Position numbers and translations under genes: made by a program. A DNA stretch of 64,000 nt. Source: Naegleria gruberi. Taxonomy: Eukaryota. Location: the NCBI GenBank assembly GCA_000004985.1, contig GG738863.1; one strand, given 5' to 3'. The notes under the pieces were generated by a model. That model was not told where the DNA came from and made no database searches. It was given only the letters and a program-made list of their open reading frames with translations. How positions within the stretch are numbered: position 1 is the first letter of the stretch; every line of letters starts with the position of its first letter. Shown piece by piece: positions 10,925 through 53,211 of the stretch.

Positions 10925-13475
10925 ATGATCAACAATAACAATGCGGAGTCTCATCATCAACAGGGGAGCGGTATGATGGCCAATCAGACAAACCGAAGAG
11001 TTGTGGCTTCTTCTTCGAAACAATCGGCCATTGTGAGAGGACAATGTTTATTTTTATTGGGAAGTCCGTATCTTGGAAAGAGTGGTTATTTTGAACAAGA
11101 ATACGAAATTAAAGGATTTGAGAGGATTAGCTTTGAAAAGGATAGAAGGAAAACGTTTGAAAGGATTTTTAATTTGCTCTCACAAAATAGGAATATAGTA
11201 ATTGATGATGAACAAATCATGTCTCTTACTGAAGCTANNNNNNNNNNNNNNNNNNNNNNNNNNNNNNNNNNNNNNNNNNNNNNNNNNTAAGTTTTGATTT
11301 GATTGAACAAATCAAATTGAATGAAAAATTTATCATGGATATTCAAGCTTCACTAGGAGAAAATAATGGAAATTCATCTCTAATTTACCCAACCAGTGAG
11401 GAAAAATTTGACAAGTCCACTAAGAAGGAAATGTCACTCTATGTGAATAGAAGTGAATCAGAATTTTCCTACCACACACTCATACTAGATGCCTGTTCCT
11501 CTAATTTATTTACCTATGATACAAAGAAGAGAAAAATTCATTTCAAAGATGCACAAAAAATTAAGGAATTGATTTTGAAATGGACTGAAAGGAGTAAGGA
11601 TACACGAGTAGTTGTCATTTTCAGTGATAAAGACTCTTTCAGAGTTTCTCTCAATATACCTGCTAATCATGTCAATTCTTTAAATGTAATGCATTTGTTG
11701 AGAAATGCCATAATGGAATTGTCATTACCATCACCTGTTTATTATTGTACAGATAATGAAAATAAGGATATTTTTCTACTTATTTGCCAGGTAAGTTTAT
11801 ATTTTATTATTTACCGATTTAATCTATCCTATAATAATTATTCCAGATATTTTACGTTTATTCTATTAAAACGAGTGAATCATTATTAATTTCAGATAAC
11901 AAGATTGATTTACCAAAGACTATATTCAAATTATTCCCAAAACTTTCCTTAATAGATTATTCGAGCTTCTTCTCATTGGAAGATTTAAAATCACATTCAT
12001 TAGAACATAACAATACACCAATATCTAACAATGAAATTATTCCATTAGATTTCAATTCAAATGCAAGAAATATTGAAGCACCAAAACAAAGAAGATATCC
12101 ATTACTGAATCTTTTAAGCGAATCTGAGAATATGACGGATGAGTCTTACGTAGAGTACACTAAAAAGGGAATGTATCACGGTATGATTCTACAGAGACAA
12201 TACATTTCATATTTCGAATATAAGGAAGACTTTTTCGAATGCTCTGAACCAATTTTACTGAATGAAGAAAGTCAATCGAGAGTTATTCTATTTGATGACT
12301 TGGATAGAATGGAAGATGATGACAATCAGGAAGAGGAGCAGGAAGAGAATCCACTAGAAAGACTGAAAAGATTAAAAGAAATGTACAATAGGACAAAACA
12401 TTTAGATTCACAAGGAAGAGCCAATAGTAACGAAGCATATACGAGTGTTACTGTCGCGGGGTCATCTTCTACTGGAGTGTTTGCCATCAAAGATCCCTTT
12501 GGAAGAACAAATTCAACAAATATACCATCCCAAAATGATGGTATGGAACTTTCAACAGCTTCTCAAATGGAAAATGCTGCTCACAATCAGACATCATCAA
12601 CTGGTGTGATGGCCAATAGCGTTTTAGCTGACAGTAAAGTACTTTCAGCTCTCGTTGTGAACATGTCCATTCACCAAGTTATGAATCATTTTGGAATGAC
12701 ATTCTTTCAAAGAGGAAGAGACTATAAGAATGAATACAGAATTGATAATTTCAAAACTAAAATTATCAATAATGTTGCTTTCAAGCTCTATAGTACCTGT
12801 GTTGGTACGAGACCTGAACCATACAAGCAAGAAAGTATCATTAAGGAAGGAAAACTTTTGAAGGCTATTTGTAATTGTCCTATTGGAGCAGAAGGCACAT
12901 GCAAACATATTTGTGCTCAAATTCTAGCATTTAGAGAAAAGGACAAGTATATGAGAGAAAAGTTTGAATCTTTGAACAGTTCCAAGTCTGATAGGTTACT
13001 TCCTCCACCAATACCATTCTCTCAATTAGATCCAGTTCTAGATGATTGGTGTATCAAGGTAAAGGTTATCAAGAAACACAATGAGAAATCATGGGCCAAC
13101 GAGAGAGGTTCTGGACGTGTAGCTGCCATCACCATTGCTGATGAGCTTTCAGGAGATATGTCCCTCTCCTCAAAACAAAACAAGGTTAAATTGATCATGT
13201 TTAATGATTGTATCAATGAATTTTATGATCAAATGGAAGAAGGCGAAAGTTATTATGTCAATAAGGGACATTTAATCAAAAAGCCACACGAAGATTTCTT
13301 TGAAATTCAATTATGTACCAATACTGTAGTAAGAAATATTCATCAGCTCAATGTTAAATTTAAGGATCAACATAATACAAGCGCAGACTATTCAAGAATA
13401 TTCCAAGAGAAACTTCAAACTAAAAATATAGGAATTGAATTTGAGGAATATCCACTCAATTCAAGTACCACATAA
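10925..13475 (+). CDS. multidomain protein: P-loop kinase-like N-terminus, SWIM zinc finger, RPA70-like OB fold (one gene spanning an assembly gap and one intron)
   Basis: ATG at 10925. LFLLGSPYLGKSGY is a Walker A motif of the PNK/AAA_33-kinase type, and ...NIVIDDEQ is Walker B-like. The gene runs across the N-run 11237-11287. The exon ...LLICQ ends at a GTAAGT donor (11791), and a 56-nt intron (11791-11846) rejoins in frame to IFYVYS..., which is continuous with ORF 11976-13475. C-terminal half: CNCPIGAEGTCKHICAQILAF (SWIM CxCxnCxH), then WCIKVKVIKKHNEKSWANERGSGRVAAITIADELSGDMSL...GESYYVNKGHLIKKP, which closely matches the RPA70 DBD-A OB-fold consensus. Confidence 0.6.
11237..11287. other. 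assembly gap (51 N)
   Basis: Run of n inside the coding region of the 10925-13475 gene. Confidence 0.99.
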
Positions 13476-13484
13476 TAATTCCAT

Positions 13485-14673
13485 GATTGAACCATCTCCT
13501 GAAAAGAAGAGAAAGATTGAGCAAGTCATTTCTCAAAATAATGCAGAGAATGAAAATATTGAGGATCAAGAAGAGGAGGACCAACCAGAAAGAAGAATAG
13601 TGAATAATGAATACGAATCACCAAATAAGAAGGCAAAACTACCATCCATTGATACTAGGTTTGATGATATTATGAATGCTCAAACAATGGAAAGCCAACA
13701 CTCAATCATTGCATCTCAACCAATGACCTCAACATCCAACGAATCCTGCAAGTCACAAATTATCAATACTCCAAGTACAGGTAAAAAGTCTCAGGTCATT
13801 GAAGAGGAAGTATTCAATGTTGATGAAGATGAGGAAATTCATCAAGTAATTGTTCAAGATGTAGATGAGGAGGAGGATGGGCCAATATTTACTAGTGACA
13901 ATTATCAGAAACCGGCCACTGAGTCTATCCTCGCTAAATCACAACCTTTGAGTTCATCAGAACTAGCAACAAAACCAAACACATCCTCTTCCACTGTACC
14001 ATCCAATAACAACTCACAAAAGAGTAACCATTCCAGTAACAGCTCGAGCACACCCACTCCAAAACCTCATTATTACTTTGATGAAAATGAACAGAGTCAA
14101 ACATTTGAAGATATTTTCTTTACTCCATTCAAAACTCCACAAACTTGCTCCACAAACAAAACAACACCTTCATCCACCTTCTCCCTCAATGCCAAACTAG
14201 AGAATATTCTTATTGACGATGAATCTTCCCCATTCTATCAAAGTGAATCAAAAACTAAGGACTTGATTCCTGATGATGATGTTCAAGAAATTGTAAATAG
14301 TCAAGAATTTGAAAGAAAACCAATGAGCCCTAAATCCCTAAGTCAACACAACAAGCCACAAGTTTTGGATTATGTTGTTTTGAGTGACAATGAAGAAGTG
14401 GAAATTTTGGACTTTGTCACTCCAAGAAAACCAATTCGTAAAAAGACCAAACCTCAATCCCCAATATTTCAACCTCCACCTCCTACCGATATTATTGTAA
14501 GGAAACCTTCTGCTTCAATAATTGTTGAAGAAAAACCAAACCAGCAACCAGAATCTTCCAATAATTCCACCTCAGCTTTAGATAATTCCACAACAACCCC
14601 TTCTTCCACCAAAACTCCTAAAAAAGTCAGTCTCAAATTCCTTCTCGATAACAATGACATGTCTGACTGGTAA
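13485..14673 (+). CDS. acidic Ser/Thr/Asn-rich low-complexity ORF: either a frame-shifted C-terminal tail of the preceding gene or a separate gene
   Basis: The long open frame (tool ORF 13435-14673) overlaps the last 41 nt of the preceding gene in the +1 frame. Its first ATG (MIEPSPEKKRK) lies only 10 bp after that gene's stop, too close for an independent promoter. No convincing intron links the two frames. Confidence 0.35.
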
Positions 14674-15099
14674 ATCAATAATTTTCCTCAATAATAGTGT
14701 TCTTTTACTTTAATTCCATGCCTTTACCAATTTTACCTATCTATTAATAAGTTTTGTTTGTTGGTGGAATTTGCAATTTGCAGAAAGCACATTCTCTTAA
14801 AAAGAGCTCTGACAAAATCGTTGTTTTCAATTAAAATTAATTTAAATCTGAATTGAAAAAATATTCATCACAAGAGGTATGTACCCATCGTTCCGCTTTT
14901 ATGAACCGTGTTTTTGTTTGCTTTCCTTTTTTTTAACAATGATCATCATCAACAACATTAAACAACAATTCTGACAATAATATTTAACAATAATATATTT
15001 GCGGCAATTTGTGGATAATGAAAATGTGTGATGATATTCTTCTTGATAAATAATTTATTTCTTTGATGATGGACAAATTAATAATATTGTTAACAGAAA

Positions 15100-16524
15100 A
15101 TGCTCGATATCAACTTGTTAAGAGAATACAAGAACGGAAACCCTGAAATTGTCAGAGAATCCCAACGTAGAAGACACAAGGATGTTGCTCTCGTCGATAA
15201 AGTCATTGAATTGGATGCAGAATGGAGAAAGCTTACTGGTGAAGTTAATGGTATCAAGAACTTGGGCAACATTGTCAGCAAGGAAGTTGGTCAAAGAATG
15301 AAGGCTAAACAACCACTCGGTGATGATATTGAAATCCCACAAGAAATTTTGGCTACTGTCGATAAGAATTTTACAAAGGAAACTCTTGAAAGTGTTTTCC
15401 CTCAACTCAACACAAATCAATTGAAGAAACTTTCTAATCATATTACCGAAGTTCACGTCAAGCAAGCTGATACTGATGCTTCTAATAAGGAAAAGGAAAG
15501 AGATGAAGTTTTGCTTCAACTTGGTAACCTTGTTCACGAAACTGTTGTTGTTAGTGATAATGAAGATAACAATGGTATTGTTCGTTTGGTTGGTAATCCA
15601 AGACCAAAGGTTGATGACAGTGGATTCAAATGTCTTAAACATATTGATATCATGAGAAAGCTCGGATGTTTGGCTACTGAAGAAGGTACTCAAGTTGGTG
15701 GTGGTAGAGGTTATTTCTTGATGGGAGATTTGGTTAGATTGAACTTGGCTCTCCAAAATTATGCTATTCAATTTTTGACTGAAAAGGGATTCTGTCCAAT
15801 GTACACACCATTCTTCATGACAAAGGATCAAATGAAGAGAGTTGCTCAATTATCTCAATTTGATGAAGAATTATATACTGTTTCTGGTGAAGGTGAAGAC
15901 AAGTATTTGATTGCCACTTCTGAACAACCAATTGCTGCTTTCCACTTGGATAAGAGATTTGACGAAAGTGAACTTCCATTGAAGTATTGTGGTATGTCCA
16001 CTTGTTTCAGAAAGGAAGTTGGTGCTCACGGTAAGGATACTTTGGGTATTTTCCGTGTCCATCAATTTGAAAAGATTGAACAATTCGTTGTCACTTCTCC
16101 AAAGGACAATAAGAGTTGGGAAATGTTCGAAGATATGATTGGTAACTCTGAAGCTTTCTATCAATCTCTTGGTCTCTCCTACAGAGTTGTTAATATTGTC
16201 AGTGGTGCTTTGAACAATGCTGCTGCTAAGAAGTTAGATTTGGAAGCTTGGTTCCCAGGTGCTGAAGAAGGTAACGAATATCGTGAATTGGTTTCTTGCT
16301 CTAATTGTACTGACTATCAAGCCAGAAGATTGAACGTCAGATATGGTAAGGCTGCTACTAAGGGTGATGCTGAATTCTGTCACATGTTGAACTCTACATT
16401 GAGTGCTACTTCTAGAACTATTTGTTGTATTGTTGAAAATTACCAAACTCCAGAAGGTGTTAATATTCCAGAAGTTTTACAACCATACATGGGTGGTACC
16501 AAATTCATTCCATACAAGAAGTAA
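15100..16524 (+). CDS. serS: seryl-tRNA synthetase (cytosolic class II aaRS)
   Basis: Single 474-aa ORF. It has an N-terminal coiled-coil arm (MLDINLLREYKNGNPEIVRESQRRR). Class II motifs: RFDESELPLKYCGMSTCFRKE (motif 2), GAHGKDTLGIFRVHQFEKIEQF, and the motif 3 region SCSNCTDYQARRLNVRY. Collinear with SerRS throughout. Confidence 0.95.
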   Translation: MLDINLLREYKNGNPEIVRESQRRRHKDVALVDKVIELDAEWRKLTGEVNGIKNLGNIVSKEVGQRMKAKQPLGDDIEIPQEILATVDKNFTKETLESVFPQLNTNQLKKLSNHITEVHVKQADTDASNKEKERDEVLLQLGNLVHETVVVSDNEDNNGIVRLVGNPRPKVDDSGFKCLKHIDIMRKLGCLATEEGTQVGGGRGYFLMGDLVRLNLALQNYAIQFLTEKGFCPMYTPFFMTKDQMKRVAQLSQFDEELYTVSGEGEDKYLIATSEQPIAAFHLDKRFDESELPLKYCGMSTCFRKEVGAHGKDTLGIFRVHQFEKIEQFVVTSPKDNKSWEMFEDMIGNSEAFYQSLGLSYRVVNIVSGALNNAAAKKLDLEAWFPGAEEGNEYRELVSCSNCTDYQARRLNVRYGKAATKGDAEFCHMLNSTLSATSRTICCIVENYQTPEGVNIPEVLQPYMGGTKFIPYKK

Positions 16525-16727
16525 ATTTATTAATCTTTTGTTTTTAAATTTTACTTTCTTATGTGAGAAGGAACATAAGGAATCTAAATTTGAAAAATTC
16601 AAGTTAAGTTGGACTTGTTTCTATCCTGTGGTATCCTGCGGTGATCTATTCAGCTCAGAATTTCGAAACAATTCACGCCAAAGGAATCAAGTGAATTCAT
16701 TTATATTTCAGATTTTATGATAGTGGA

Positions 16728-16819
16728 TGGCTACGGCGTCCGATTTGAGAAGTTAAGCATCGTCGAGCCACATCAGTACTGAGGTTGGAGACAACTTGGG
16801 AACCTGTGGTGCTGTAGTC
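16728..16819 (+). rRNA. 5S rRNA gene copy with a 27-nt internal deletion (probable pseudogene or variant)
   Basis: GGCTACGGC|GTCCGATTTGAGAAGTTAAGCATCGTCGAGCCACATCAGTACTGAGGTTGGAGACAACTTGGGAACCTGTGGTGCTGTAGTC followed by TTTT. It is identical over 86 nt to the reverse complement of 21603-21688. It lacks CATATCACGATGAATGCACCTCATCCC, which is present in the other copy after ACGGC. Confidence 0.55.
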
Positions 16820-16875
16820 TTTTATTTTGAAAACCTTTTGGCTATTTTCATCTTCAAAAAAAATGCAAGAAGAAA

Positions 16876-19389
16876 ATGCCACCCTCAATAACTGCAAGTA
16901 ACGAGAAACTAAAATCAAAGAAAACGACAAAGAGGAAAAATGAAGAGGAATATATTCCTTTTGATAATGATGAATTTATTGAGGCAGAGGATGAAACTAC
17001 GAAAGCAAAAAAACCAACAAAAACAAATATTAAGGTTACTACTCACAACAATCCTGTGCCAAGCACACCCAAAAAGAGAAAAACAGGATCTACTGTTGAC
17101 TTTGTTCCTGTAACCACCCCATCCACATATACAAATTCAAACCATAATCCTGTTAAAGTGGATTTTTGCCAGTCAGACCTGGCTAACGATGATAGCCTGT
17201 TTAAAATACCATTTATTAACAGAGAATATGTTTCTCAACAATTAGCAGAATCTCTATTACTCCAAAAATCCACACAAAAAGGAATCCTGCCAATTTTGAG
17301 CCAACATTTTGGAAGTGGAAAGACAGCCCTTGTTGAAAACTTTAGACAAGTTTTAACAAGAAACAATATTTCTCTTGTTGGCACAGAAGAAAATGTCAAG
17401 AGTTTGATGCAGGCTGCCTTGGTTTATTTGGACGTATCAATTGAGGCTCCTTCTGATAAGTTTGAGGATTTAGATTTAAAAGGTATTTTTTTTGAAAATT
17501 GCTTGGAAAGAACATGTGATGCTTTAAAACAGGTTGATGCAACATTCTTGGACGAATCAGAAAAGGAAAAATTGAAAATGAGTTTGTCTGTGATTCAGAA
17601 TATGGTTTGTAATGAAGAACCACTCTACTTGCATCAGAAAGTTGTTGCCTCATTCAAGGATTGTGGTAACATTTTCAACTTTTTTCAAAGATGGTCAAAA
17701 AACCAACTTTTTCCCTTACTTTTATTTTTTGATGAATTTTCCCACTTGGGAGAGAGTGTAATTCTCAAATTTTGGCAAAGGTTGAAACTGCTCTTTGGAT
17801 GTACAAACCCTGGAAAAACTATTAGATATCCAGGTATATATATTGTGGTTGCTGGTAAATCGGCTGCCCTCGCCAAATTAGGAAGAGGTTTCATTGTTTC
17901 TCCAACGCCATCTATTCACATTGTATTGGACATGCTGAAAGTTGAGCATATAGCTGAACTGATAACTGAGTTAGAAATTTCACCAAACAAAAGTATTACA
18001 ATGAAACAATTTTTGGAACAGGAATTCAAAATTGGGAAACATTTTGAGTTTTTTTGTAAAGTTCTTCATGAATATTCTGGAGGAATACCTAGACTAATTA
18101 TCAAAACAGCATTCTCTTTTGTGGACTATTGGCGTAGAACAGGAAAAGCAGTGGAATTGTCTTCACGAGAAAAAATTGAGCTAGTATTTAAAAGTTTCAA
18201 AACAAGTGAAATATTGAGCCATGTAAGAAACCTTTCTGAAATAATTCCATTAACATTTGAGGCTGACCATCCTTCATATTCAACCTTGAAAAGATTTTTC
18301 TATTTTGCAACTGTCGGAATTCCAGTAGAACCAAAAGCAAATATGATTGATCTAATATATGATTTGAATATTGGAGTGGAAACCATGTTGGTAGCAGAGG
18401 AAGATGTTTCACACCAATATTTTCGACCAATTGTTCCAAAATTTATTTCACTTTCAGAAATAGAAATACCTGAAAAAATTCAAATGTTGCAACAAATATT
18501 CTCTCATGGATTTAAAGAGTCTCAATATGTTGACAAAGGAGCATTGCTAGAAATACTTGTACGAGATACCATCATTAGCAAAATTGTTTTTCTTATCACA
18601 GAAAACAAGTTGAAAGGAGGCAAATGGAAAACAATACATCCATGTTTTGCAAAATCAAATCTCTTGAGAGATAAAATTGTCAAGATGGATACACAGTATG
18701 TGAGATACATGCCAAAAATTATTACCAGCAATAAGGCCAAGTGTCATAAAGATTCAGAATACTTTGAAATGGATATTCCTTGGGACCATACAGCATCTGA
18801 TCAAAACTGGAAAAAAGTGAAACAAGTCTTTTTTATTGGTGATTGCCTTGTTCATCCAGCTCCTAAATCAAGGTCAAGTGATTTTTACATCAACCTCCCT
18901 CCTGATTGTGCACTTGCTTTTGCAGTTAAGAATTATCCAAAAACTGTATTTTCAATTCAAATGCTACAACAAGAGATTGATACGTGTTTTTTATCTACAC
19001 AGAAAGGCACTTTTTCAAAGATTACATTATTCGTATTTTGTAGTGGTATTGAACATTCTGATCTTAATAACTATTGCGATCGTGATGGATGTTTGGTTCT
19101 TGAATCTGGAGTTTATGAGTTTGAGGAGAATAATACTATCAAAACAACTCAATCAAGTTTTAAACCAGTTTTTAAAAAACTTAGAAATACACCAAATAAT
19201 ATATCAGAGTACTCACCGCCACACCACGATCTCAAAATTTATATCCCTGACGACATGGAAGTTATCGTTTTAGGCAAGCAAAGTTTTGACTCTTTTTTCA
19301 ATGAAAATGATAGGTCATTATTGCAACGCTTATCAACAGACTTGCCAACTGTTCAACACCTAGAAAGCATTTTACCAAATATTTATTAA
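16876..19389 (+). CDS. hypothetical P-loop NTPase (Walker A FGSGKTAL, Walker B LLLFFDEF), 837 aa
   Basis: Single long ORF with a basic N-terminal tail, then ...GILPILSQHFGSGKTALVENF and hhhhDE further downstream. The rest is large and probably helical. No family could be assigned by eye. Confidence 0.55.
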   Translation: MPPSITASNEKLKSKKTTKRKNEEEYIPFDNDEFIEAEDETTKAKKPTKTNIKVTTHNNPVPSTPKKRKTGSTVDFVPVTTPSTYTNSNHNPVKVDFCQSDLANDDSLFKIPFINREYVSQQLAESLLLQKSTQKGILPILSQHFGSGKTALVENFRQVLTRNNISLVGTEENVKSLMQAALVYLDVSIEAPSDKFEDLDLKGIFFENCLERTCDALKQVDATFLDESEKEKLKMSLSVIQNMVCNEEPLYLHQKVVASFKDCGNIFNFFQRWSKNQLFPLLLFFDEFSHLGESVILKFWQRLKLLFGCTNPGKTIRYPGIYIVVAGKSAALAKLGRGFIVSPTPSIHIVLDMLKVEHIAELITELEISPNKSITMKQFLEQEFKIGKHFEFFCKVLHEYSGGIPRLIIKTAFSFVDYWRRTGKAVELSSREKIELVFKSFKTSEILSHVRNLSEIIPLTFEADHPSYSTLKRFFYFATVGIPVEPKANMIDLIYDLNIGVETMLVAEEDVSHQYFRPIVPKFISLSEIEIPEKIQMLQQIFSHGFKESQYVDKGALLEILVRDTIISKIVFLITENKLKGGKWKTIHPCFAKSNLLRDKIVKMDTQYVRYMPKIITSNKAKCHKDSEYFEMDIPWDHTASDQNWKKVKQVFFIGDCLVHPAPKSRSSDFYINLPPDCALAFAVKNYPKTVFSIQMLQQEIDTCFLSTQKGTFSKITLFVFCSGIEHSDLNNYCDRDGCLVLESGVYEFEENNTIKTTQSSFKPVFKKLRNTPNNISEYSPPHHDLKIYIPDDMEVIVLGKQSFDSFFNENDRSLLQRLSTDLPTVQHLESILPNIY

Positions 19390-19725
19390 GTATTGGAATA
19401 GCTTACAAGGTTGAAATTACTTCATTGCAATTAAATGACAGATGACATTAATAAACTTTCACGTTTTTCTATGCTAATATTAAGTGATGTTATGTTTCAT
19501 TTCACTTATATTTGACTCATTCATCAATTAGATTGCCAAGTTTTATCAAGCGATGTTAATTGTTTCATTTCACTAATGTAACCTTCTTGTTTTACCATGA
19601 TGATGACAATGATGCTGTAATTACAGAAGAGTTTTTTACATTTATCCTAAATCCACAAGCACTTGGAACTTATTGGTCAACTTGCTTTTCGAAATGGTAT
19701 TCATGGAAACACAACATTGAAAAAA

Positions 19726-21588
19726 ATGAATACAAATAACCTTCCCACAGATTGCTTGTTGTACTTGTGTGATTTTATGATCCTTCAATTGAATGATTAT
19801 TGCAATATTTTCCTAGTTAACAAACATTGGAGGAATTCATTGGAATTGAATAATCATTTCTGGTTGAGGCAAGTGTGTGGTATTGTTAAAATGGCTTCCG
19901 ATGATCATCATCATTCCTTTGATCAATTGTGTAGCATGGTAATTTATGGAAATTGGACTGAATTCAAATTAAAGTATAAAGGAAATGTGTATTTACATAA
20001 ATTTTGGAAGAGAATTGAAAAGTTAAAGGAAATGAGTAGTGATATTGAACTCTTAAAATCAGCAGCTTTTCAAGTGATTGTGCAATTTCATAGAAATGCA
20101 TCGAGTCAATTTCAAAAAGAACGGTTAAAATTGGAGAACACTCACTATTTGGAAAGGTTTGAAAAGTATCACTTCTTTTATCAAGATGAATATCAGTCGA
20201 ATGTCAATATGATTTTAACAATAGATAGCATGTTCATGACTCATTTCTCTCAGTATTGGGTTTATTTGATAGGCTTTGATACTAAATATCCAAATACACC
20301 AACCAGATTAACAACCATGTTTTTACAGAAATGTATCGAGTCGAAACAGAATTATTGTGGTAAAATGGCAAGTCTATTGTCATTTACTTTGAATAGTGAG
20401 ACACTCATTGGTATAGATGTTGAGAATTTTCTATCAACCTTGATCAATTCATTGCTAAAGTATTTCACAAACCCTAGTATTAGCAAGAATCACAAGCAAA
20501 AGCTCGATCTTTATCAAAAATTGATTGATGAAATGTTTTTGAATTTGAATGAGTATCATAGTGGTGAAATATTTGTTTCAATAATGAAACGACTTCAGTC
20601 TGATATTTTCCCACTTGTTTCCAAAGAAAAGCAACAATGTGAGATTGTCACAATACCAAAATTGTCAAAACAATTATTGAATATTATTTGCCAAGATGGA
20701 AATATGAGAGAAAATATTATCCCTTTCGTATTTTCTAATTTTCGAGTGGAGAGTAACATGTTACAAACCTTATTGAAAAGTTCAAGAGATTCATTTATAG
20801 TGAAATGGTACTATACTACTTTACGAGATGAATTCACATGTGTGATCTATCCTCAAATCGAATATGTGATGGGAGAAGAGTTGATTTCATTTCAAGAATT
20901 GATCCAAACATTGGCTAATCATTACATGAAACGAGGGAAGACATTTAAGAAACTGTTGCAAGATATTCAAAAAACTAGCTGTCCATTCAAAATGGTACTT
21001 AGAAAGGGCGTGGGATTATTAGAAACCATTGAGCATTTGGAATATTACTACCAACTCTACTCGACCAATATGAAGAAGGATGTTGTAAAAGAGTATTTGG
21101 CTGAAGCACTTGGAGAAATGTTTCCAAGTATGATAGAAAGTAGTGGCGTTCCTTTCGCCAAGAGTATTGTCGATCATTACAAGACCAATTTCCATATTCC
21201 TCTTCACAAATGCTCAAAAAAGAATCATGACGCAAACATGTGCTTTGATATTTGTGAGATTTTGACTGCCAATCAAAATTGTCCAAAGAATTGGAAAGAT
21301 AATCAAGCTTACTTTACGATTCATCCAATAGCTTTATATTTAATTGGAAATAGGTATTGTTATGGTGGAAATCTTGATCTTTCGAGCTTTCTTCCTGAAT
21401 ATGGAGAAACTATAATTACAGTTCCAATTTTGATAGATTTTGTGAGAACCTATACTGGTAATGATAGTTCACCAATTTATAGTTTTCCCTATTCGAAAGT
21501 TCCACCAACATCTATTCGATTCATTTTGAAGAAGGTCACATTGAAAACCTTACTTGAAAATCCAATGCTTATTCTGGATCACCTGTAG
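19726..21588 (+). CDS. F-box domain protein (F-box at the N-terminus, large C-terminal region of unknown function)
   Basis: The tool ORF starts at a TTG. The first ATG at 19726 gives MNTNNLPTDCLLYLCDFMILQLNDYCNIFLVNKHWRNSLELNNHFW, an F-box consensus (LPxEiLxxIfxxL...W). The ORF is open to TAG at 21586-21588. Confidence 0.55.
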   Translation: MNTNNLPTDCLLYLCDFMILQLNDYCNIFLVNKHWRNSLELNNHFWLRQVCGIVKMASDDHHHSFDQLCSMVIYGNWTEFKLKYKGNVYLHKFWKRIEKLKEMSSDIELLKSAAFQVIVQFHRNASSQFQKERLKLENTHYLERFEKYHFFYQDEYQSNVNMILTIDSMFMTHFSQYWVYLIGFDTKYPNTPTRLTTMFLQKCIESKQNYCGKMASLLSFTLNSETLIGIDVENFLSTLINSLLKYFTNPSISKNHKQKLDLYQKLIDEMFLNLNEYHSGEIFVSIMKRLQSDIFPLVSKEKQQCEIVTIPKLSKQLLNIICQDGNMRENIIPFVFSNFRVESNMLQTLLKSSRDSFIVKWYYTTLRDEFTCVIYPQIEYVMGEELISFQELIQTLANHYMKRGKTFKKLLQDIQKTSCPFKMVLRKGVGLLETIEHLEYYYQLYSTNMKKDVVKEYLAEALGEMFPSMIESSGVPFAKSIVDHYKTNFHIPLHKCSKKNHDANMCFDICEILTANQNCPKNWKDNQAYFTIHPIALYLIGNRYCYGGNLDLSSFLPEYGETIITVPILIDFVRTYTGNDSSPIYSFPYSKVPPTSIRFILKKVTLKTLLENPMLILDHL

Positions 21589-21606
21589 ATTTTTCTAAGA
21601 CAAAAA

Positions 21607-21724
21607 GACTACAGCACCACAGGTTCCCAAGTTGTCTCCAACCTCAGTACTGATGTGGCTCGACGATGCTTAACTTCTCAAATCGGACGGGATGAGGTGC
21701 ATTCATCGTGATATGGCCGTAGCC
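21607..21724 (-). rRNA. 5S rRNA gene (apparently full-length, about 118 nt)
   Basis: The reverse complement reads GGCTACGGCCATATCACGATGAATGCACCTCATCCCGTCCGATTTGAGAAGTTAAGCATCGTCGAGCCACATCAGTACTGAGGTTGGAGACAACTTGGGAACCTGTGGTGCTGTAGTC followed by TTTTT, which is a pol III terminator. The 5' GGCUAC pairs with the 3' GUAGUC to form helix I. The conserved ACGGCCATA, CCCGTCCGAT, AGTACT and GGGAAC...GGTGCTGTAG elements are in the expected order. Confidence 0.7.
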
Positions 21725-21976
21725 ATCATTGTTATTAAAATATGAAATTTCAATCAAAAGAGATTCGGGACCTAGTAGCAAAAGGACCGTTTTTATCTCC
21801 ACCGAACAAATGATATTCAAGTAAATGAAATTAATATTTTAATAAATTGTTTTAGGTATTATTTGATCTGGGACGAAAGTGAACGAATTACATTATTTTT
21901 GTAATTTGAAATTTAAATACTATTCACAATTTAATAATAGTGAATGAACTTTCTCATTTCATTATAATTTGAATAT

Positions 21977-22689
21977 CTAGAATAATTGATTATCATTGGT
22001 TCTAGTCGCCATTTGTGAGAAATGTAATACACAATCAGAATTTGGTTTACCAAAAGGAATTCTTGATTCAATGTTTGTATCAATTACACCAGTTTCGTCC
22101 ACTTTCACTTGAATATCAAAGAAGAATCTTCTATTAGAAAGTGTCAAAATTAATGGAATAATTACAAATTCACCTTTCTTCAATTCCAAAAGCAAATCTC
22201 CTGCAATAGGATTGTGAAAAATCAATTCAAATCTTGTCAATTGATACAAAACTGGATGAGATTCATTAATTTCCAAATTATAGAAATTTGGAGTTGTAAA
22301 TTCAAATTTGTGAGTTTTTAATTCCAATTCCAAAATTGTTCCACTAATTCTTTGACATAATGTCACATGCTGTTGAAATCTAGTTTCGTCATACAATTGA
22401 TAGGATTGGAATTTTGATCGCAACAATAAATTTCTGCATTGTAATTTGATTTTTCCATTGGTGATGAAGAAAGGATGTACAGTTGGAAGAGTACTTGCAT
22501 TCGAAACAAGATCAGTTTCGGCTACCACATTCATGTTGGTAGATGCCACATGTTGAGATGTATTTTGAGCAATATTTTGTACATCTGCTGCAACAGTTTT
22601 GCTCACGCTTTCAGATTCATGTGGATTGGTTGAATTATTTGCACTTTGTTGTTGCTCTTGCTCATTATTCGAATGTTGTTGTTGTAACA
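21977..22689 (-). CDS. hypothetical Gln/Asn-rich protein
   Basis: The tool ORF starts at a TTG. The first ATG (MLQQQHSNNEQEQQQ) is at 22689. The ordered C-terminal half is ...FFITNGKIKLQCRNLLLRSKF...LILTLSNRRFFFDIQVKVDETGVID. No recognisable domain. Confidence 0.4.
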
Positions 22690-23174
22690 TGTTGCTTGAG
22701 GATGTGAATTCTTCGATTTGTGTTTGTTTTGGGATTAGTTGTTGTTGGCGTGGCAGATGATGAACCAGTCCCAACTAAAGAATACGAAACTATTAGCAAT
22801 GAAAGGGAGTCTTGAATTGATTGTTTTTTTGTGCTCAAATTTGGAAAGTGCAAGATGATGGCTAGACAGCTTTGCTTCTGTTAGCAGCAACGTAACCTTT
22901 CGAATAGTATTTTCAAGTAGGAATTTCCAAGCATGTAAGCTGTTGAAACATGTTGTATTCAATCGTTTTTTTATGTGGTTAGAAAAAGAAAGCAGTTCAA
23001 ACGTGACAATAACTCGTTTCTTTCATCACGTTTTCAATTCGAAACTAAATTCACAAATCTCTCATTGTAATCATTAAACACTATTAAATAATAGTTAAAT
23101 ACTCCAAATTTGGAAACACTCCAAAAATTGCAAATTCGAAAAACCCTTTTATGAAACTTTGAAAACAAAAAAAA

Positions 23175-25385
23175 ATGCTAGACTCCATCTACTCTCTCTT
23201 TACCTACGGAAAATCCCTTTTGATTCCCACCCCATCGGAACCAGGATCCACCAATAAGAATGAAAACAATCAACTAGAACAACAATATCCAATTGATAGA
23301 ATGTCCACCACAAGAAACTTTTCCGACTATCGTTTTGAATATTACTACAATTTAGATGATGATTCGCTCTTTTATAAACGCTCGGGATGGGCTGAATATT
23401 GTAATAACAAATTGGGACTTGTTTTTAGATATCCAACAGTGAATAATTTGTGTATTGAAGTGTTGCCTTTGGGTGATGGTGTAATTTCTGTACAACTCAG
23501 AGAGAAGGAATCAGAAACAACAACTAATGGGTGCTCCTCCTCCTCCTCCTGATGTCATGAGTGGAATGGTTGGTAAGTTGTTTATTATTATTTGAATTAA
23601 TTGGGGAGAATTAATGATGTGATTTGTGATTCATATGAAATAGCCACCATGTTTAATATTGAAGATGTTTCTAGTATTGTCCTTCAACAGAATAGTAATA
23701 CTTCATCTAATGATAATAATAATTCATCCTCTCGTTCCAATATTCTCAATCAGCATCATCAGAAAGAAGAAGAAGAAGAACAAGTGGTGGACATGACAAC
23801 ATTTGGACCAAAGGAGCACTTACTCAATTCATTGAAAAAGTTTGAAGAAAATAATTTTCCTTACAAGGTTTTACAACAACGAGCTGTTAAAATTAATTCA
23901 AGAAAGGCATATGAATGTAAATTGGAATTGGAAATGAAAAAGTCTATTCTCAGTAAGCATTTCAAACAATTTGAAAAGAGTGAAAGTGGTGATTCTGTTA
24001 AGGTTTTACTTTATTTGGTAGCTTTGAAATCTGATGAAACAAACAAATTCTTCACTCTTCAACACATGACTCCTAATCTTGATTTGGAAAACTTTGAAAA
24101 TGAAATTGAAAATAACATTTCACACATGGTGAGAAGTATTAAACTTGTGCAGACACAACAAGTTGGTGGATTCACTTTGGAAAGGAAAGATTTGGGAATC
24201 TCCATGAAGTTATTGGATGAAGCTTGGCAATGTTGGAAAGTTTCTGAATTAGAACATGATTTTACAGCTCCAACTAGGAAGAGTAAGGCAACAGATAGCT
24301 CAACCAAACTCAAAATGGAATCCTTAATTGAACTTCCAAACCATTTGAGGAATGAGAATGTATTGCTCTATCTAGTTTCACAACACTCAAAAGATCAGAT
24401 TGGAAAGGAGTTTGCTCTCATTGAATGTACCACAGCAGAACAACAAGAAACATTTGAACAAATTCTAGAACATAGAAAGGTTTCCTTGAAGAAATTCGAT
24501 AACTTTATTGAAATTTCAGAAAGAATCAACTTTGGCGATGAATTGGCATCGGAAGGAATTTTATTTGCCTATATTACTGAATTCGAGTCATCACCAGTTC
24601 ACTCCTCCAAGCTTCTCCCAACTGATCTTACTCAGTCATTCGAAAGATACAATGCCATAGAGTGCTACTTTACCAGAGACTCCAAGATTTACAAAATATT
24701 TTCCAGATCTCACTTTTCACAATCACTTTCTTCCTTCAGAGAAAGTATCATTTCACAATTCAAATGCCTCACATTCAAGCAACCTGAAACAACTACAGAT
24801 TTATTGGATAATACATTCATGACATTTAAGAGTGAAGAGCACAAGTTTGAGATTCAAGTCCCACTTTTGTATCAAGTTTCTGCTAAGGAATCTCTCGGAA
24901 ATACTCCAGTTTGCCAATTCTTCTCCAGATACTCCATGCTCAATGTCCTTCACATGTTTGAAACTCAAATCTACTTTGAATTAATTGGACACATTTCCAA
25001 GAATGAACACATACTCACAGATGCCACTCAAAGATTGGAAACTCTAAAACAATCTCTCCACTCTCAAATGGTTAGAAATCTTGGAAAGCCAATTCCTTTA
25101 CGATCAGAGAGCACCTTAGTTTTTAATGATATTGAGGCAAGGCATGTTGTCTTTTCCACACCAATTGGTTCTCCAATTCATCAAAAGAATTTAATTCATG
25201 CGCATACCAACTTTTTGTGGGTTTGCCCTTCACCTCAAGCAATACTCAGTCAGTCTAAATCACCTCAATCTGATACTGTATATGTTGTAACTATCAAGTC
25301 GAATGTAATGGAGTCATTCTTTACGGAATCTATTGAAAAACTGCTTCAACAGATTCATTCTACTTTCAAACTTGTCAAAGAATAG
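23175..25385 (+). CDS. hypothetical protein; either one gene with a 72-nt intron (23572-23643) or two adjacent genes (23175-23552 and 23649-25385)
   Basis: Read directly from the displayed sequence, the frame from ATG 23175 stays open through ...MGAPPPPPDVMSGMVG to a canonical GTAAGT donor at 23572. An acceptor ...AATAG at 23643 rejoins exactly in the frame of ORF 23601-25385 (ATMFNIEDVSS...). The supplied ORF track instead ends the first ORF at 23552. That 1-nt discrepancy near 23520 is unresolved. No known domain. Confidence 0.45.
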
Positions 25386-51005: not shown

Positions 51006-52349
51006 TCATACCAAGACCCTCTCTTCACTAATTTGTACAGAATTCATTGAATGAACATCTGTTGCTGTATCAATATTGAGATAAATATTGGTATTAGTGT
51101 CAGAGGCACGAATGGTTCCATTATTTTCAACTCTTGAAATTTCAAATTGTGGAGGTGGTTCATTCATTGAAATTAAATGAAGTTTTTGAGTCTTTCCACC
51201 TTCAATTTCACAAGTTCCTAGAAATCGTATCGTACAAACTTCGTCCAATATTGAAGCTGTTGTTCCATCACAAATTATTCCACTCTCTAAATGATCGATA
51301 GCATAATAACAATGAGCAATAGATGAATTGATTAATTCCCCATACAATCCAAAATGTCTTCTAAAATCCGATCCAACACTAGCTCTGTAACCATAACCAC
51401 TTGCAAATCCAACACCATCGACCTCTAAATTCTCCCTATGAATTAGTTCTTTCAAACAGTGAATTACTAATGAAGGATTGGACTCTGCCATATGTCGTTC
51501 AAAGCTCAATATAAATTTTAGACTCTTTCTATCAAAGAACATATCAAGAACACAACAGTTATATTGCTCTGAAACAACTTGAATAGAATTGACAATATTA
51601 TTCTTTGTTGCNNNNNNNNNNNNNNNNNNNNNNNNNNNNNNNNNNNNNNNNNNNNNNNNNNAATTAATTATATTCATTAATTTAGCTGTAGACAGAGGAG
51701 TGTTTGTTCCGAAAGTTTGAAGAGGAGCCATTAATTGTTTCCTCTTTCTAATAGTTGCATTTACCTGCTTAATAATCCTTTTCTTTTGAATTTTTGAATT
51801 AGATTTGAACCATTTTGCATCCTTTACAGTGTCTTGCAGATCTTTCTTTTTAGCCATTAATTCCATAGTATCACTAGGAGAAGCATTTACTATTAATGAA
51901 TTTAATGGAATACATTTTGCTCCCAAAATTTTCAATTGATTCTTTTTGGAAGTAACCTTGTCAGCTTTACGTTTTAGAACTAGAACACTTCTTTGATTAT
52001 CATCATGAGCAATAATGGAATAGGTTTGATTTTTTCTACTTGCAATCAGTGTTTCGAATGGAACAGTTTCAATATGTTGTAATTCTTCCTTTCTGATTTT
52101 ATAATTTTTAACCTTTTTAATTTTGTCAATGCATAGGGCAACATATTTTCTCTTCAACCATTGAAATACTCTATTACAACAAAATCCTTGATGAATGTGT
52201 TTCTTTAATTCTTTGGATGCAAGATTTCTTCCTGTTTTATTCAATAAAAAAGCTCTGTACCAACGTTTCTTGTTGTGAGTTGTTTGACAGCAAACACAAA
52301 CAGTTCCTTTATCAATTAGTTGTGTTGATCGTGATGACAACTTACACAT
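51006..52349 (-). CDS. hypothetical protein (Cys-rich basic N-terminus; interrupted by an assembly gap)
   Basis: 447-aa ORF reading across the N-run 51612-51661. MCKLSSRSTQLIDKGTVCVCCQTTHNKKRWYRAF..., with ...GYGYRASVGSDFRRHFGLYGELINSSIAHCYYAIDHLESG at the C-terminus. Convergent with the EEP gene, with 6 bp between stops. No family assigned. Confidence 0.45.
   Translation of the reverse strand: MCKLSSRSTQLIDKGTVCVCCQTTHNKKRWYRAFLLNKTGRNLASKELKKHIHQGFCCNRVFQWLKRKYVALCIDKIKKVKNYKIRKEELQHIETVPFETLIASRKNQTYSIIAHDDNQRSVLVLKRKADKVTSKKNQLKILGAKCIPLNSLIVNASPSDTMELMAKKKDLQDTVKDAKWFKSNSKIQKKRIIKQVNATIRKRKQLMAPLQTFGTNTPLSTAKLMNIINXXXXXXXXXXXXXXXXXATKNNIVNSIQVVSEQYNCCVLDMFFDRKSLKFILSFERHMAESNPSLVIHCLKELIHRENLEVDGVGFASGYGYRASVGSDFRRHFGLYGELINSSIAHCYYAIDHLESGIICDGTTASILDEVCTIRFLGTCEIEGGKTQKLHLISMNEPPPQFEISRVENNGTIRASDTNTNIYLNIDTATDVHSMNSVQISEERVLV
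51612..51661. other. assembly gap (50 N)
   Basis: n run inside ORF 51006-52349. Confidence 0.99.
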
Positions 52350-53161: not shown

Positions 53162-53211
53162 NNNNNNNNNNNNNNNNNNNNNNNNNNNNNNNNNNNNNNN
53201 NNNNNNNNNNN
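53162..53211. other. assembly gap (50 N)
   Basis: n run separating the duplicated EEP fragment from the sAC-like paralogue. Confidence 0.99.

What the first reader, a model, noticed from the sequence alone, without database searches (positions are those of the whole stretch)
16728..21724. Two chromosomal 5S rRNA gene copies in inverted orientation form an 86-bp perfect inverted repeat around a two-gene segment
The sequence at 21607-21724 (minus strand) is a full-length 5S rRNA with the helix I complement and an oligo-T terminator. The sequence at 16728-16819 (plus strand) is a second copy that is identical over 86 nt but lacks 27 nt after ACGGC. The pair brackets 4.8 kb containing a P-loop NTPase gene and an F-box gene. 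In Dictyostelium discoideum the 5S gene resides on the extrachromosomal rDNA palindrome, so dispersed chromosomal 5S copies are a lineage-informative feature. The perfect identity of the shared 86 nt suggests gene conversion or recent duplication. Inverted repeats of this kind can mediate inversion of the enclosed segment.
Basis: seen in the sequence. Interest (0 to 1): 0.55.

Follow-up and report, generated by a model that had tools for sequence, protein, structure and literature searches.

The report
Naegleria 5S gene plus deleted pseudogene
The window comes from the amoeba Naegleria gruberi and holds two already-catalogued members of its roughly 279-copy scattered 5S ribosomal RNA gene family, one intact gene and one copy disabled by a 27-base internal deletion, which is an ordinary arrangement for this genome.

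Summary
Rfam finds a full-length 5S rRNA gene at 21606-21724 (-) at 105 bits. It finds a second copy at 16729-16820 (+) at 42 bits, just above the threshold of 38. The second copy is exactly the first with nucleotides 10-36 deleted and no substitutions. The two form an 87-nt perfect inverted repeat around two genes.

The lineage framing is wrong. Three encoded proteins are 100% identical to Naegleria gruberi proteins, so this is a heterolobosean, not a dictyostelid.

Both copies are already rows R33827 and R33536 (scaffold_19) in a 2012 catalogue of 279 dispersed N. gruberi 5S genes. That catalogue has 32 neighbouring pairs 5 kb or less apart (about 9 expected by chance) and 15 short copies.

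Perfect identity is not special to this pair. A 5S gene at another locus, from an environmental relative whose neighbouring protein is only 86% identical, differs at 1 of 119 positions.

The deletion removes the 5' strands of helices II and III, so the short copy is most likely a young pseudogene. Both copies keep a conserved upstream element and a T-run.

Inversion of the enclosed segment is possible but untested. The P-loop call is supported at motif level and the F-box call only weakly. This is an ordinary feature of low interest.

The parts
21606..21724 (-). Intact 5S rRNA gene (119 nt); catalogue entry R33536, scaffold_19:117605-117721
   Evidence: RF00001 at 105.4 bits, full model. The MFE fold is the canonical three-way junction, -41.5 kcal/mol. 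Box A-, IE- and box C-like sequences lie at gene positions about 49-64, 67-72 and 79-97 (read from the sequence). 118/119 identical to the 5S gene of L006.
21735..21754 (-). Conserved upstream element of the intact gene (positions -30 to -11, ATTGAAATTTCATATTTTAA); probable TATA-like Pol III upstream promoter element
   Evidence: 16/20 identical to the same positions upstream of the short copy, and also conserved in L006. P about 2e-5 for AT-rich 20-mers of this window. A TATA box upstream of N. gruberi 5S genes was reported in PMC3369914. Function is inferred.
21602..21606 (-). T-run (TTTTT) at the 3' end of the intact gene; probable Pol III terminator
   Evidence: Read from the sequence. T-runs are noted as putative terminators in PMC3369914, Fig. 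2 legend.
16729..16820 (+). Internally deleted 5S copy (92 nt; deletion of gene nt 10-36, junction between 16737 and 16738); probable pseudogene; catalogue entry R33827, scaffold_19:112737-112821
   Evidence: RF00001 at 42.0 bits against a gathering score of 38, with 27 model positions skipped. Equals the full gene minus nt 10-36, with 0 substitutions. The fold keeps helix I and the helix IV/V arm but loses helices II/III.
16699..16718 (+). Conserved upstream element of the short copy (-30 to -11, ATTTATATTTCAGATTTTAT)
   Evidence: 16/20 identity to the intact gene's upstream element.
16820..16828 (+). T-run TTTTATTTT after the short copy; probable Pol III terminator
   Evidence: Read from the sequence.
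16737..16823 (+). Left arm of the 87-nt perfect inverted repeat (right arm 21603-21689)
   Evidence: the repeat finder pair I1, 100% complementary, 4779 nt between the arms.
21603..21689 (-). Right arm of the 87-nt perfect inverted repeat
16876..19389 (+). Enclosed gene 1: 837-aa 'predicted protein' of N. gruberi, a divergent P-loop NTPase-like protein; its start codon lies 56 nt after the short 5S copy
   Evidence: 100% identical to an NCBI N. gruberi predicted protein. No Pfam hit. 20 distant relatives in the exhaustive HMMER search. Invariant Q143/G146/G148/K149/T150 (Walker A-like) and a conserved hhhhFDE. Weak AAA_16, AAA_22, ATPase_2 and KAP hits in relatives.
19663..21588 (+). Enclosed gene 2: 641-aa ORF (annotated model 620 aa, starting at 19726), an orphan 'predicted protein' with a possible N-terminal F-box-like motif; its stop codon lies 18 nt before the 3' end of the intact 5S gene
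   Evidence: The only database match is the N. gruberi protein itself. No Pfam hit on the whole protein. The N-terminal 65 aa alone give F-box-like at E 0.054 and F-box at E 0.087, both below cutoff.
15100..16524 (+). Context: seryl-tRNA synthetase gene, used to identify the organism; its stop codon lies 205 nt before the short 5S copy
   Evidence: Pfam tRNA-synt_2b and Seryl_tRNA_N. 100% identical to N. gruberi seryl-tRNA synthetase.

Best explanation
These are two neighbouring members of the dispersed chromosomal 5S rRNA gene family of Naegleria gruberi. In Naegleria the 18S, 5.8S and 28S genes sit on a roughly 14-kb extrachromosomal circle, while about 279 5S genes are scattered singly or in loose pairs through short intergenic regions of the chromosomes. 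The copy at 21606-21724 (-) is an intact, presumably active RNA polymerase III gene. It has an internal control region, an AT-rich upstream element at -30 to -11, and a T-run terminator. The copy at 16729-16820 (+) was once the same kind of unit, because it still has the upstream element and the T-run. It then lost nt 10-36 in one deletion event with 1 nt of microhomology. That removed loop A, the 5' strands of helices II and III, and part of loop C. The resulting RNA cannot build the arm that binds ribosomal protein uL18/L5. The deletion also moves the internal promoter 27 bp closer to the upstream element. The copy is therefore most likely a young pseudogene. The 87-nt perfect inverted repeat follows simply from two members of a nearly invariant family lying in opposite orientation. 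Shown here: the identity of both sequences, the exact deletion, the structural loss, the organism, the catalogue membership, and the commonness of close pairs and short copies. Inferred: loss of function, a recent date for the deletion, and the promoter role of the upstream element.
For: Rfam hits and alignments. Exact deletion with 0 substitutions. Folds. Organism identification. Catalogue of 279 copies with coordinates matching at an offset of 96,000: 16737 maps to 112737 and 21605 to 117605. Catalogue statistics: 117 scaffolds, 15 entries under 110 nt, and 32 adjacent pairs at 5 kb or less against 9.3 +/- 2.9 expected. 18S/5.8S/28S only on the extrachromosomal element. Homology between the copies is confined to about -35 through the T-run, with a conserved -30 to -11 element. 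L006, a different locus in a strain whose neighbouring protein is 86% identical, has a 5S gene 118/119 identical. The 5S genes are absent next to the seryl-tRNA synthetase gene in two Naegleria single-cell genomes and in Willaertia, so the position is lineage-specific.
Against: No expression data exist for either copy. The short copy still passes the Rfam gathering score, keeps helix I, the helix IV/V arm, an upstream element and a terminator, and shows no decay. It could therefore still be transcribed and might have some use. Eight catalogue entries have similar hit lengths of 80-88 nt, which leaves open that this form is recurrent rather than a one-off accident.
Confidence: 0.85

Rival explanations
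1. The pair arose by a recent local inverted duplication, or is kept identical by gene conversion between the two neighbours.
For: 92/92 identity in a copy that is probably non-functional. Close pairs of 5S genes are 3.4-fold over-represented genome-wide, which suggests local duplication is a common route.
Against: Homology stops at about -35 and at the T-run, and within -1 to -40 identity is only 24/40. A recent duplication would therefore have had to copy a unit of only about 160 bp. Identity needs no pair-specific mechanism, since a copy at another locus in a diverged strain is 118/119 identical. A conversion tract covering the whole gene would have repaired the deletion.
Confidence: 0.25
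2. The inverted 5S repeats act as recombination substrates that flip the 4.8-kb two-gene segment, giving two orientation isomers in the population.
For: 87 bp of perfect inverted homology bracket the segment. Exchange within the shared part would regenerate one intact and one deleted copy, so an inversion would be viable.
Against: No read-level data are available. 87 bp is a short substrate. No recombinase-like domain is found in or next to the segment. With 279 identical copies, any pair could recombine, and this pair is not special. The published assembly shows one orientation.
Confidence: 0.05
3. The short copy is a functional 5S-derived small RNA (a 'mini-5S' lacking the beta domain) or a 5S-derived mobile element, rather than a dead gene.
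For: It retains the upstream element, the internal promoter boxes, the terminator, helix I and the helix IV/V arm. It shows no substitutions. Eight catalogue entries of 80-88 nt hint at a recurring size class.
Against: No target-site duplications, A-tail or LTR context flank it. No second copy of the junction exists in the window or in the one environmental relative recovered. The non-transcribed upstream element is present, which argues for DNA-level ancestry and not retroposition. BLAST with a heterologous query can break at that point for trivial reasons.
Confidence: 0.07
4. Assembly artefact: a collapsed or misplaced rDNA unit.
For: None beyond the general risk with repeated genes.
Against: Unique, gene-bearing flanks lie on all four sides. 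There are no N gaps within 5 kb. Naegleria rDNA circles carry no 5S gene. The same two positions were reported independently from the JGI assembly.
Confidence: 0.02

Closest known systems
[quoted passage not shown]
   Same: The two copies are entries R33536 and R33827 of that table (scaffold_19). They are chromosomal, intergenic, have an upstream AT-rich element and T-run terminators, and have the same gene length.
   Different: The paper lists coordinates only. It does not mention the exact 27-nt internal deletion, the inverted orientation, the conserved -30 to -11 element as defined here, or the excess of close pairs. It scores the arrangement as 'tandem', whereas its own table shows a dispersed family with loose pairs.
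Dispersed 5S genes and 5S pseudogenes of filamentous fungi and fission yeast (Neurospora crassa, Aspergillus nidulans, Schizosaccharomyces pombe); from my own knowledge, not tested here
   Same: Single 5S genes are scattered between protein-coding genes, with unrelated flanks, a nearly invariant coding sequence, a short conserved upstream element, and some defective copies.
   Different: The classic Aspergillus pseudogenes are truncated at the 3' end. Here the defect is an internal deletion of nt 10-36 with both ends intact.
Dictyostelium discoideum extrachromosomal rDNA palindrome carrying the 5S gene
   Same: Both organisms keep the large rRNA genes on a multicopy extrachromosomal element.
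   Different: This is a different supergroup (Heterolobosea, not Amoebozoa). The Naegleria element is a roughly 14-kb circle with 18S, 5.8S and 28S only, and the 5S genes are chromosomal and dispersed.
5S-derived mobile elements (SINE3-type SINEs, Cassandra TRIM retrotransposons; Cassandra preprint listed)
   Same: They contain a 5S-related sequence with the internal Pol III promoter, dispersed in the genome.
   Different: Here there are no target-site duplications, no tail and no LTR. The sequence is identical to the rRNA gene rather than merely related, and the non-transcribed upstream element is retained.
Inversions between inverted rRNA genes or other inverted repeats (bacterial rrn-mediated inversions, plastid inverted-repeat flip-flop); from my own knowledge
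   Same: Identical rRNA gene sequences in inverted orientation bracket a segment.
   Different: The repeats here are only 87 bp, against kilobases in those systems. No isomers have been documented.

Membership tests
5S rRNA gene (Rfam RF00001): copy at 21606-21724 | Covariance-model score above the gathering threshold over the full model | tested here: met
   105.4 bits against 38, model positions 1-120.
5S rRNA gene (Rfam RF00001): copy at 21606-21724 | Three-way junction with helix I, the helix II/III arm and the helix IV/V arm, about 120 nt | tested here: met
   The MFE and centroid structures show all three arms; 119 nt; -41.5 kcal/mol; z -2.6.
5S rRNA gene (Rfam RF00001): copy at 21606-21724 | Pol III type 1 promoter (box A, intermediate element, box C) and T-run terminator | tested here: met
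   AAGTTAAGCATCGTCG (positions 49-64), CCACAT (67-72) and TGAGGTTGGAGACAACTTG (79-97) occupy the positions of the Xenopus boxes, followed by TTTTT (sequence). An internal control region and TATA box were reported for N. gruberi 5S genes in PMC3369914. This is sequence resemblance only; factor binding was not tested.
5S rRNA gene (Rfam RF00001): copy at 21606-21724 | Transcribed and incorporated into ribosomes | not testable with these tools
   No expression data are available, and identical copies could not be told apart in any case.
5S rRNA gene (functional): copy at 16729-16820 | Covariance-model score above the gathering threshold | tested here: met
   42.0 bits against 38, but with 27 model positions skipped and 4 non-canonical pairs flagged. 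The pass is marginal.
5S rRNA gene (functional): copy at 16729-16820 | Complete helix II / loop B / helix III / loop C arm (the binding site of uL18/L5) | tested here: not met
   Nt 10-36 are deleted, and the fold has no helix II/III arm. The copy is therefore filed as a pseudogene, not as a functional 5S gene.
5S-derived SINE or retroposed pseudogene | Target-site duplications, a 3' tail, and no conservation of the non-transcribed upstream sequence | tested here: not met
   No direct repeat of 6 nt or more within 40 nt on either side of any of the three copies. The upstream -30 to -11 region is conserved at 16/20.
Invertible DNA segment (recombinase-driven switch) | Inverted repeats flanking the segment | tested here: met
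   87-nt perfect inverted repeat.
Invertible DNA segment (recombinase-driven switch) | A dedicated recombinase encoded in or beside the segment | tested here: not met
   No recombinase or integrase domain in the ORFs at 13435-25385.
Invertible DNA segment (recombinase-driven switch) | Both orientations present in a population | not testable with these tools
   This needs reads or PCR.
P-loop NTPase (837-aa protein) | Walker A (GxxxxGK[ST]-like) and Walker B (hhhhD/E) motifs conserved across homologues, and a significant match to a P-loop profile | tested here: inconclusive
   QHFGSGKT is invariant in 8 of 8 sequences and hhhhFDE is mostly conserved. Only sub-threshold Pfam hits (AAA_16 0.013, AAA_22 0.0046, ATPase_2 0.015, KAP 0.031) occur in relatives, and none in the protein itself. 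PDB sequence searches were negative. The AlphaFold model was unusable, pLDDT 38.8.
F-box protein (641-aa ORF) | Match to the F-box or F-box-like profile above the curated cutoff | tested here: not met
   The whole protein gives no hit even at E<=10. The N-terminal 65 aa give F-box-like at 13.7 bits against 24.3 and F-box at 13.2 against 20.5. This is a motif-level resemblance only.

The most novel reading that the evidence does not exclude
The 27-nt-deleted form may not be a one-off dead copy. It could be one of a recurrent class of 5S derivatives lacking the beta domain; eight entries of 80-88 nt in the published catalogue have the same hit length. Such copies keep the Pol III promoter, terminator, helix I and the helix IV/V arm, and could be transcribed into a stable 'mini-5S' RNA with its own role, for example titrating 5S-binding factors. 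Alternatively, convergent 5S pairs such as this one could flip or insulate the genes between them.
Probability: 0.05. Interest if true: 0.45.

Novelty: already known. Interest (0 to 1): 0.12.

Why it matters
It matters little. The locus is a clean example of how Naegleria organises its 5S genes: on the chromosomes, dispersed, often in loose pairs, and separate from the extrachromosomal rDNA circle. It also corrects the statement repeated in the rDNA-circle literature that no rRNA genes are chromosomal. The internally deleted copy is a convenient natural marker. Its unique junction would let one ask whether a 5S gene with displaced internal promoter boxes is still transcribed. The excess of close pairs suggests that local duplication spreads 5S genes. 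None of this changes current understanding.

Tried and rejected
1. Dictyostelid origin: rejected, because three proteins are 100% identical to N. gruberi proteins.

2. Synteny test: the seryl-tRNA synthetase loci of two uncultivated Naegleria single-cell genomes (L001, L002) and of Willaertia magna (L003) carry no 5S gene and have a different gene order. They therefore gave no ancestral state.

3. Fetching other N. gruberi 5S loci failed. The look-up of encoding contigs holds no record for N. gruberi proteins.

4. The metagenome scan with a 23-mer returned six loci. Five are a coincidental match inside bacterial LarA genes and only L006 is a real 5S gene. Scans of genome contigs and viral contigs found nothing.

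5. Sigma-70 promoter and intrinsic-terminator scans are irrelevant for a eukaryote and were at shuffle level.

6. Single-sequence AlphaFold models of parts of both enclosed proteins were unusable (pLDDT 38.8 and 39.6), so no fold search was run.

7. PDB sequence and profile searches for the enclosed proteins were negative.

8. Retroposition or SINE origin: rejected, because there are no target-site duplications and the upstream element is conserved.

9. Assembly artefact: rejected, because the flanks are unique, there are no gaps nearby, and the positions appear independently in the published table.

10. The N. gruberi genome paper (Cell 2010) is not held in the library.
Full report
**Observation.** The two sequences are present as described. 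An Rfam scan of the whole window gives exactly two hits, both to 5S_rRNA (RF00001). One is at 21606-21724 on the minus strand, at 105.4 bits over the full model. The other is at 16729-16820 on the plus strand, at 42.0 bits. That is just above the gathering score of 38, and 27 model positions are skipped. A permissive rescan of 14500-24000 adds nothing.

The repeat finder reports one perfect inverted repeat, 16737-16823 against 21603-21689. It is 87 nt long with 4779 nt between the arms. A script shows that the short copy equals the long one with nucleotides 10-36 (CATATCACGATGAATGCACCTCATCCC) removed. There are no substitutions in the remaining 92 nt, and the junction has 1 nt of microhomology.

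The deleted 27-mer and the shared core occur nowhere else in the window. ARAGORN finds no tRNA genes. No assembly gap lies near either copy.

**Organism.** The ORF at 15100-16524 is a seryl-tRNA synthetase that is 100% identical to the NCBI Naegleria gruberi protein on a 467,654-bp contig. The next best matches are N. fowleri (80%), Willaertia magna (71%) and Acrasis kona (62%). Both enclosed ORFs are also 100% identical to N. gruberi 'predicted proteins' on the same contig. The window is therefore heterolobosean chromosomal DNA, with about 34% G+C.

**What is already known.** In Naegleria the 18S, 5.8S and 28S genes are carried only on a roughly 14-kb closed circular extrachromosomal element, present in thousands of copies. 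A 2012 paper (PMC3369914) searched the JGI N. gruberi assembly by BLAST. It reported 279 putative 5S genes, not linked to the rDNA, with an internal control region and a TATA box.

Its Table S1 contains scaffold_19:112737-112821 (R33827, 85 nt) and scaffold_19:117605-117721 (R33536, 117 nt). With an offset of exactly 96,000, these are window positions 16737-16821 and 21605-21721. Both copies were therefore already catalogued, although the paper did not describe the deletion or the orientation.

I transcribed the table and analysed it:
- The 279 entries lie on 117 scaffolds, and 235 of them are 117 nt long.
- Fifteen entries are shorter than 110 nt, and eight of those are 80-88 nt.
- There are 32 adjacent same-scaffold pairs at 5 kb or less and 42 at 10 kb or less.
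- 79 of the 279 copies have a neighbour within 10 kb.

A uniform model on 41 Mb (genome size from my own knowledge) gives 9.3 +/- 2.9 pairs at 5 kb or less and 18.4 +/- 4.0 at 10 kb or less. The maxima over 2000 simulations were 21 and 36. A 5S gene with a second copy a few kilobases away is thus routine in this genome, and so are short copies.

**Anatomy of the two units.** The intact copy folds into the canonical three-way junction at -41.5 kcal/mol. Box A-, intermediate-element- and box C-like sequences sit at the same gene positions as in Xenopus (about 49-64, 67-72 and 79-97; read from the sequence). The gene ends in TTTTT.

I aligned both window copies and a third copy from a metagenome contig (L006) with their flanks. 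Homology is confined to the gene, about 33 nt upstream, and the T-run. Identity between the two window copies, in 10-nt bins counted back from -1, is 4, 8, 8, 4, 1, 4 and so on. That defines a conserved element at -30 to -11: ATTGAAATTTCATATTTTAA against ATTTATATTTCAGATTTTAT, 16/20 identical. The probability is about 2e-5 for AT-rich 20-mers of this window. L006 shares this element. It fits the TATA-like upstream element reported for these genes, but its function is inferred.

No target-site duplications flank any copy. The short copy therefore descends from a complete gene unit at the DNA level and not from a retroposed transcript.

**Effect of the deletion.** Nucleotides 10-36 comprise the 3' part of loop A, the 5' strands of helices II and III, loop B, and the first bases of loop C (dot-bracket structure). 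The short RNA can still form helix I and the helix IV/V arm, but it has no helix II/III arm.

From established knowledge of eukaryotic 5S RNPs, that arm is the main binding site of ribosomal protein uL18 (L5), so such an RNA should not enter ribosomes. The deletion also brings the internal promoter boxes 27 bp closer to the upstream element, which should disturb positioning of TFIIIB. This last point is inference. The most likely status of the short copy is a pseudogene.

**Why the identity is perfect.** The evidence does not require either.

L006 is a 1,964-bp environmental contig whose alpha/beta-hydrolase gene is 86% identical in protein sequence to an N. gruberi gene on a different, 401,612-bp scaffold. 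It therefore represents another locus in a diverged member of the N. gruberi complex. Its 5S gene (106 bits) still differs from the window gene at only one of 119 positions. The 5S sequence is thus held nearly constant across loci and strains, so any two intact copies will form a near-perfect repeat.

For the defective copy, zero changes in 92 nt beside a clearly diverged upstream region (24/40 identical in -1 to -40) is best explained by a recent deletion in a gene that had been under selection until then. Gene conversion from other family members remains possible. A recent duplication of a larger segment is excluded, because the flanks are unrelated.

**The enclosed genes.**
- The 837-aa protein has no Pfam hit and no word-indexed homologue other than itself. 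An exhaustive HMMER search finds 20 distant relatives, the best at 36% identity.
- In an alignment of eight family members, Q143, G146, G148, K149 and T150 (QHFGSGKT) are invariant. An FVNRE motif lies upstream, and an hhhhFDE motif is largely conserved.
- Several relatives give sub-threshold hits to AAA_16, AAA_22, ATPase_2 and KAP_NTPase. 'P-loop NTPase' is therefore a reasonable label, but it is not confirmed.
- The 641-aa ORF (annotated as 620 aa) has no homologues. It matches F-box-like only when its N-terminus is scanned alone, and then below threshold (E 0.054).
- Single-sequence AlphaFold models of parts of both proteins were unusable, and PDB searches were negative.
- Neither protein resembles a recombinase.

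**Inversion.** The geometry allows homologous exchange between the arms, and the products would again be one intact and one deleted copy. However, 87 bp is a short substrate, no recombinase is present, the same argument applies to any of the 279 copies, and no read-level data were available. I rate this as possible but unsupported.

**Comparative context.** The seryl-tRNA synthetase loci of two uncultivated Naegleria genomes and of Willaertia contain no 5S gene, and their neighbouring genes are different. The positions of these 5S copies are therefore lineage-specific. The ancestral state could not be reconstructed.

**Verdict.** The finding is a real but ordinary feature: two catalogued members of the dispersed N. 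gruberi 5S gene family, one intact and one a young internal-deletion pseudogene, lying in convergent orientation. The one open thread is whether the eight 80-88-nt entries of the published catalogue share the same breakpoint. If they do, the deleted form would be a propagated class. The tools at hand could not test this, because no DNA-level access to the rest of the assembly was available.

Noticed in passing
L004:1547-1569, L005:2116-2138, L007:12327-12349, L008:526-548, L009:152-174: The 23-mer GCATCGTCGAGCCACATCAGTAC of the Naegleria 5S gene occurs exactly in five GC-rich bacterial metagenome contigs. There it lies inside a lactate-racemase (LarA) gene, encoding ...TGIVEPHQYA... (Pfam Lar_N 3.8e-44). 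This is a coincidence of a conserved protein motif, not a 5S relic, since Rfam gives no hit there.
   Followed up: yes
L006:539-657 (-) and L006:823-1908 (+): An environmental contig from the N. gruberi complex carries a 5S gene 166 nt upstream of, and divergent from, an alpha/beta-hydrolase gene. That gene is 86% identical to N. gruberi XP_002676052.1, which lies on another scaffold. The 5S gene is 118/119 identical to the window gene (T24A) and shares the upstream element.
   Followed up: yes
Table S1 of PMC3369914 (scaffold_59:172675, _42:267547, _61:144509, _61:101584, _1084:570, _594:1, _27:25164, _19:112737): Eight short catalogue entries have nearly the same hit length (80-88 nt) as the deleted copy in this window. 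They may share its breakpoint, or they may only reflect where BLAST alignments break. The paper scores N. gruberi 5S genes as 'tandem', but its own table shows a dispersed family with loose pairs.
   Followed up: partly
Literature (PMC5805870 and related announcements): [quoted passage not shown] This overlooks the roughly 279 chromosomal 5S genes, two of which are in this window.
   Followed up: partly
window 16876-19389 (+); alignment A2: The 837-aa protein belongs to a small, unnamed family of about 20 detectable members. Besides the P-loop motif it has a conserved C-terminal HPAPKS(K/R)SxDF motif, which may mark a second, possibly nuclease-like, module.
   Followed up: partly
L001:13751-19343: In an uncultivated Naegleria genome, the region downstream of the seryl-tRNA synthetase gene holds a 1103-aa protein with a primase C-terminal (PriCT_2) domain and a T5orf172/MUG113 protein. 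This suggests an inserted mobile or viral element there.
   Followed up: no
window 11238-11287, 39498, 51612-51661, 53162-53211: Assembly gaps: three runs of 50 N and one single N. None is close to the 5S copies.
   Followed up: yes
window 13435-14673 (+): A 412-aa ORF just upstream of the seryl-tRNA synthetase gene is rich in Ser, Asn, Gln and Glu and has no Pfam match. It looks like a typical low-complexity orphan.
   Followed up: no
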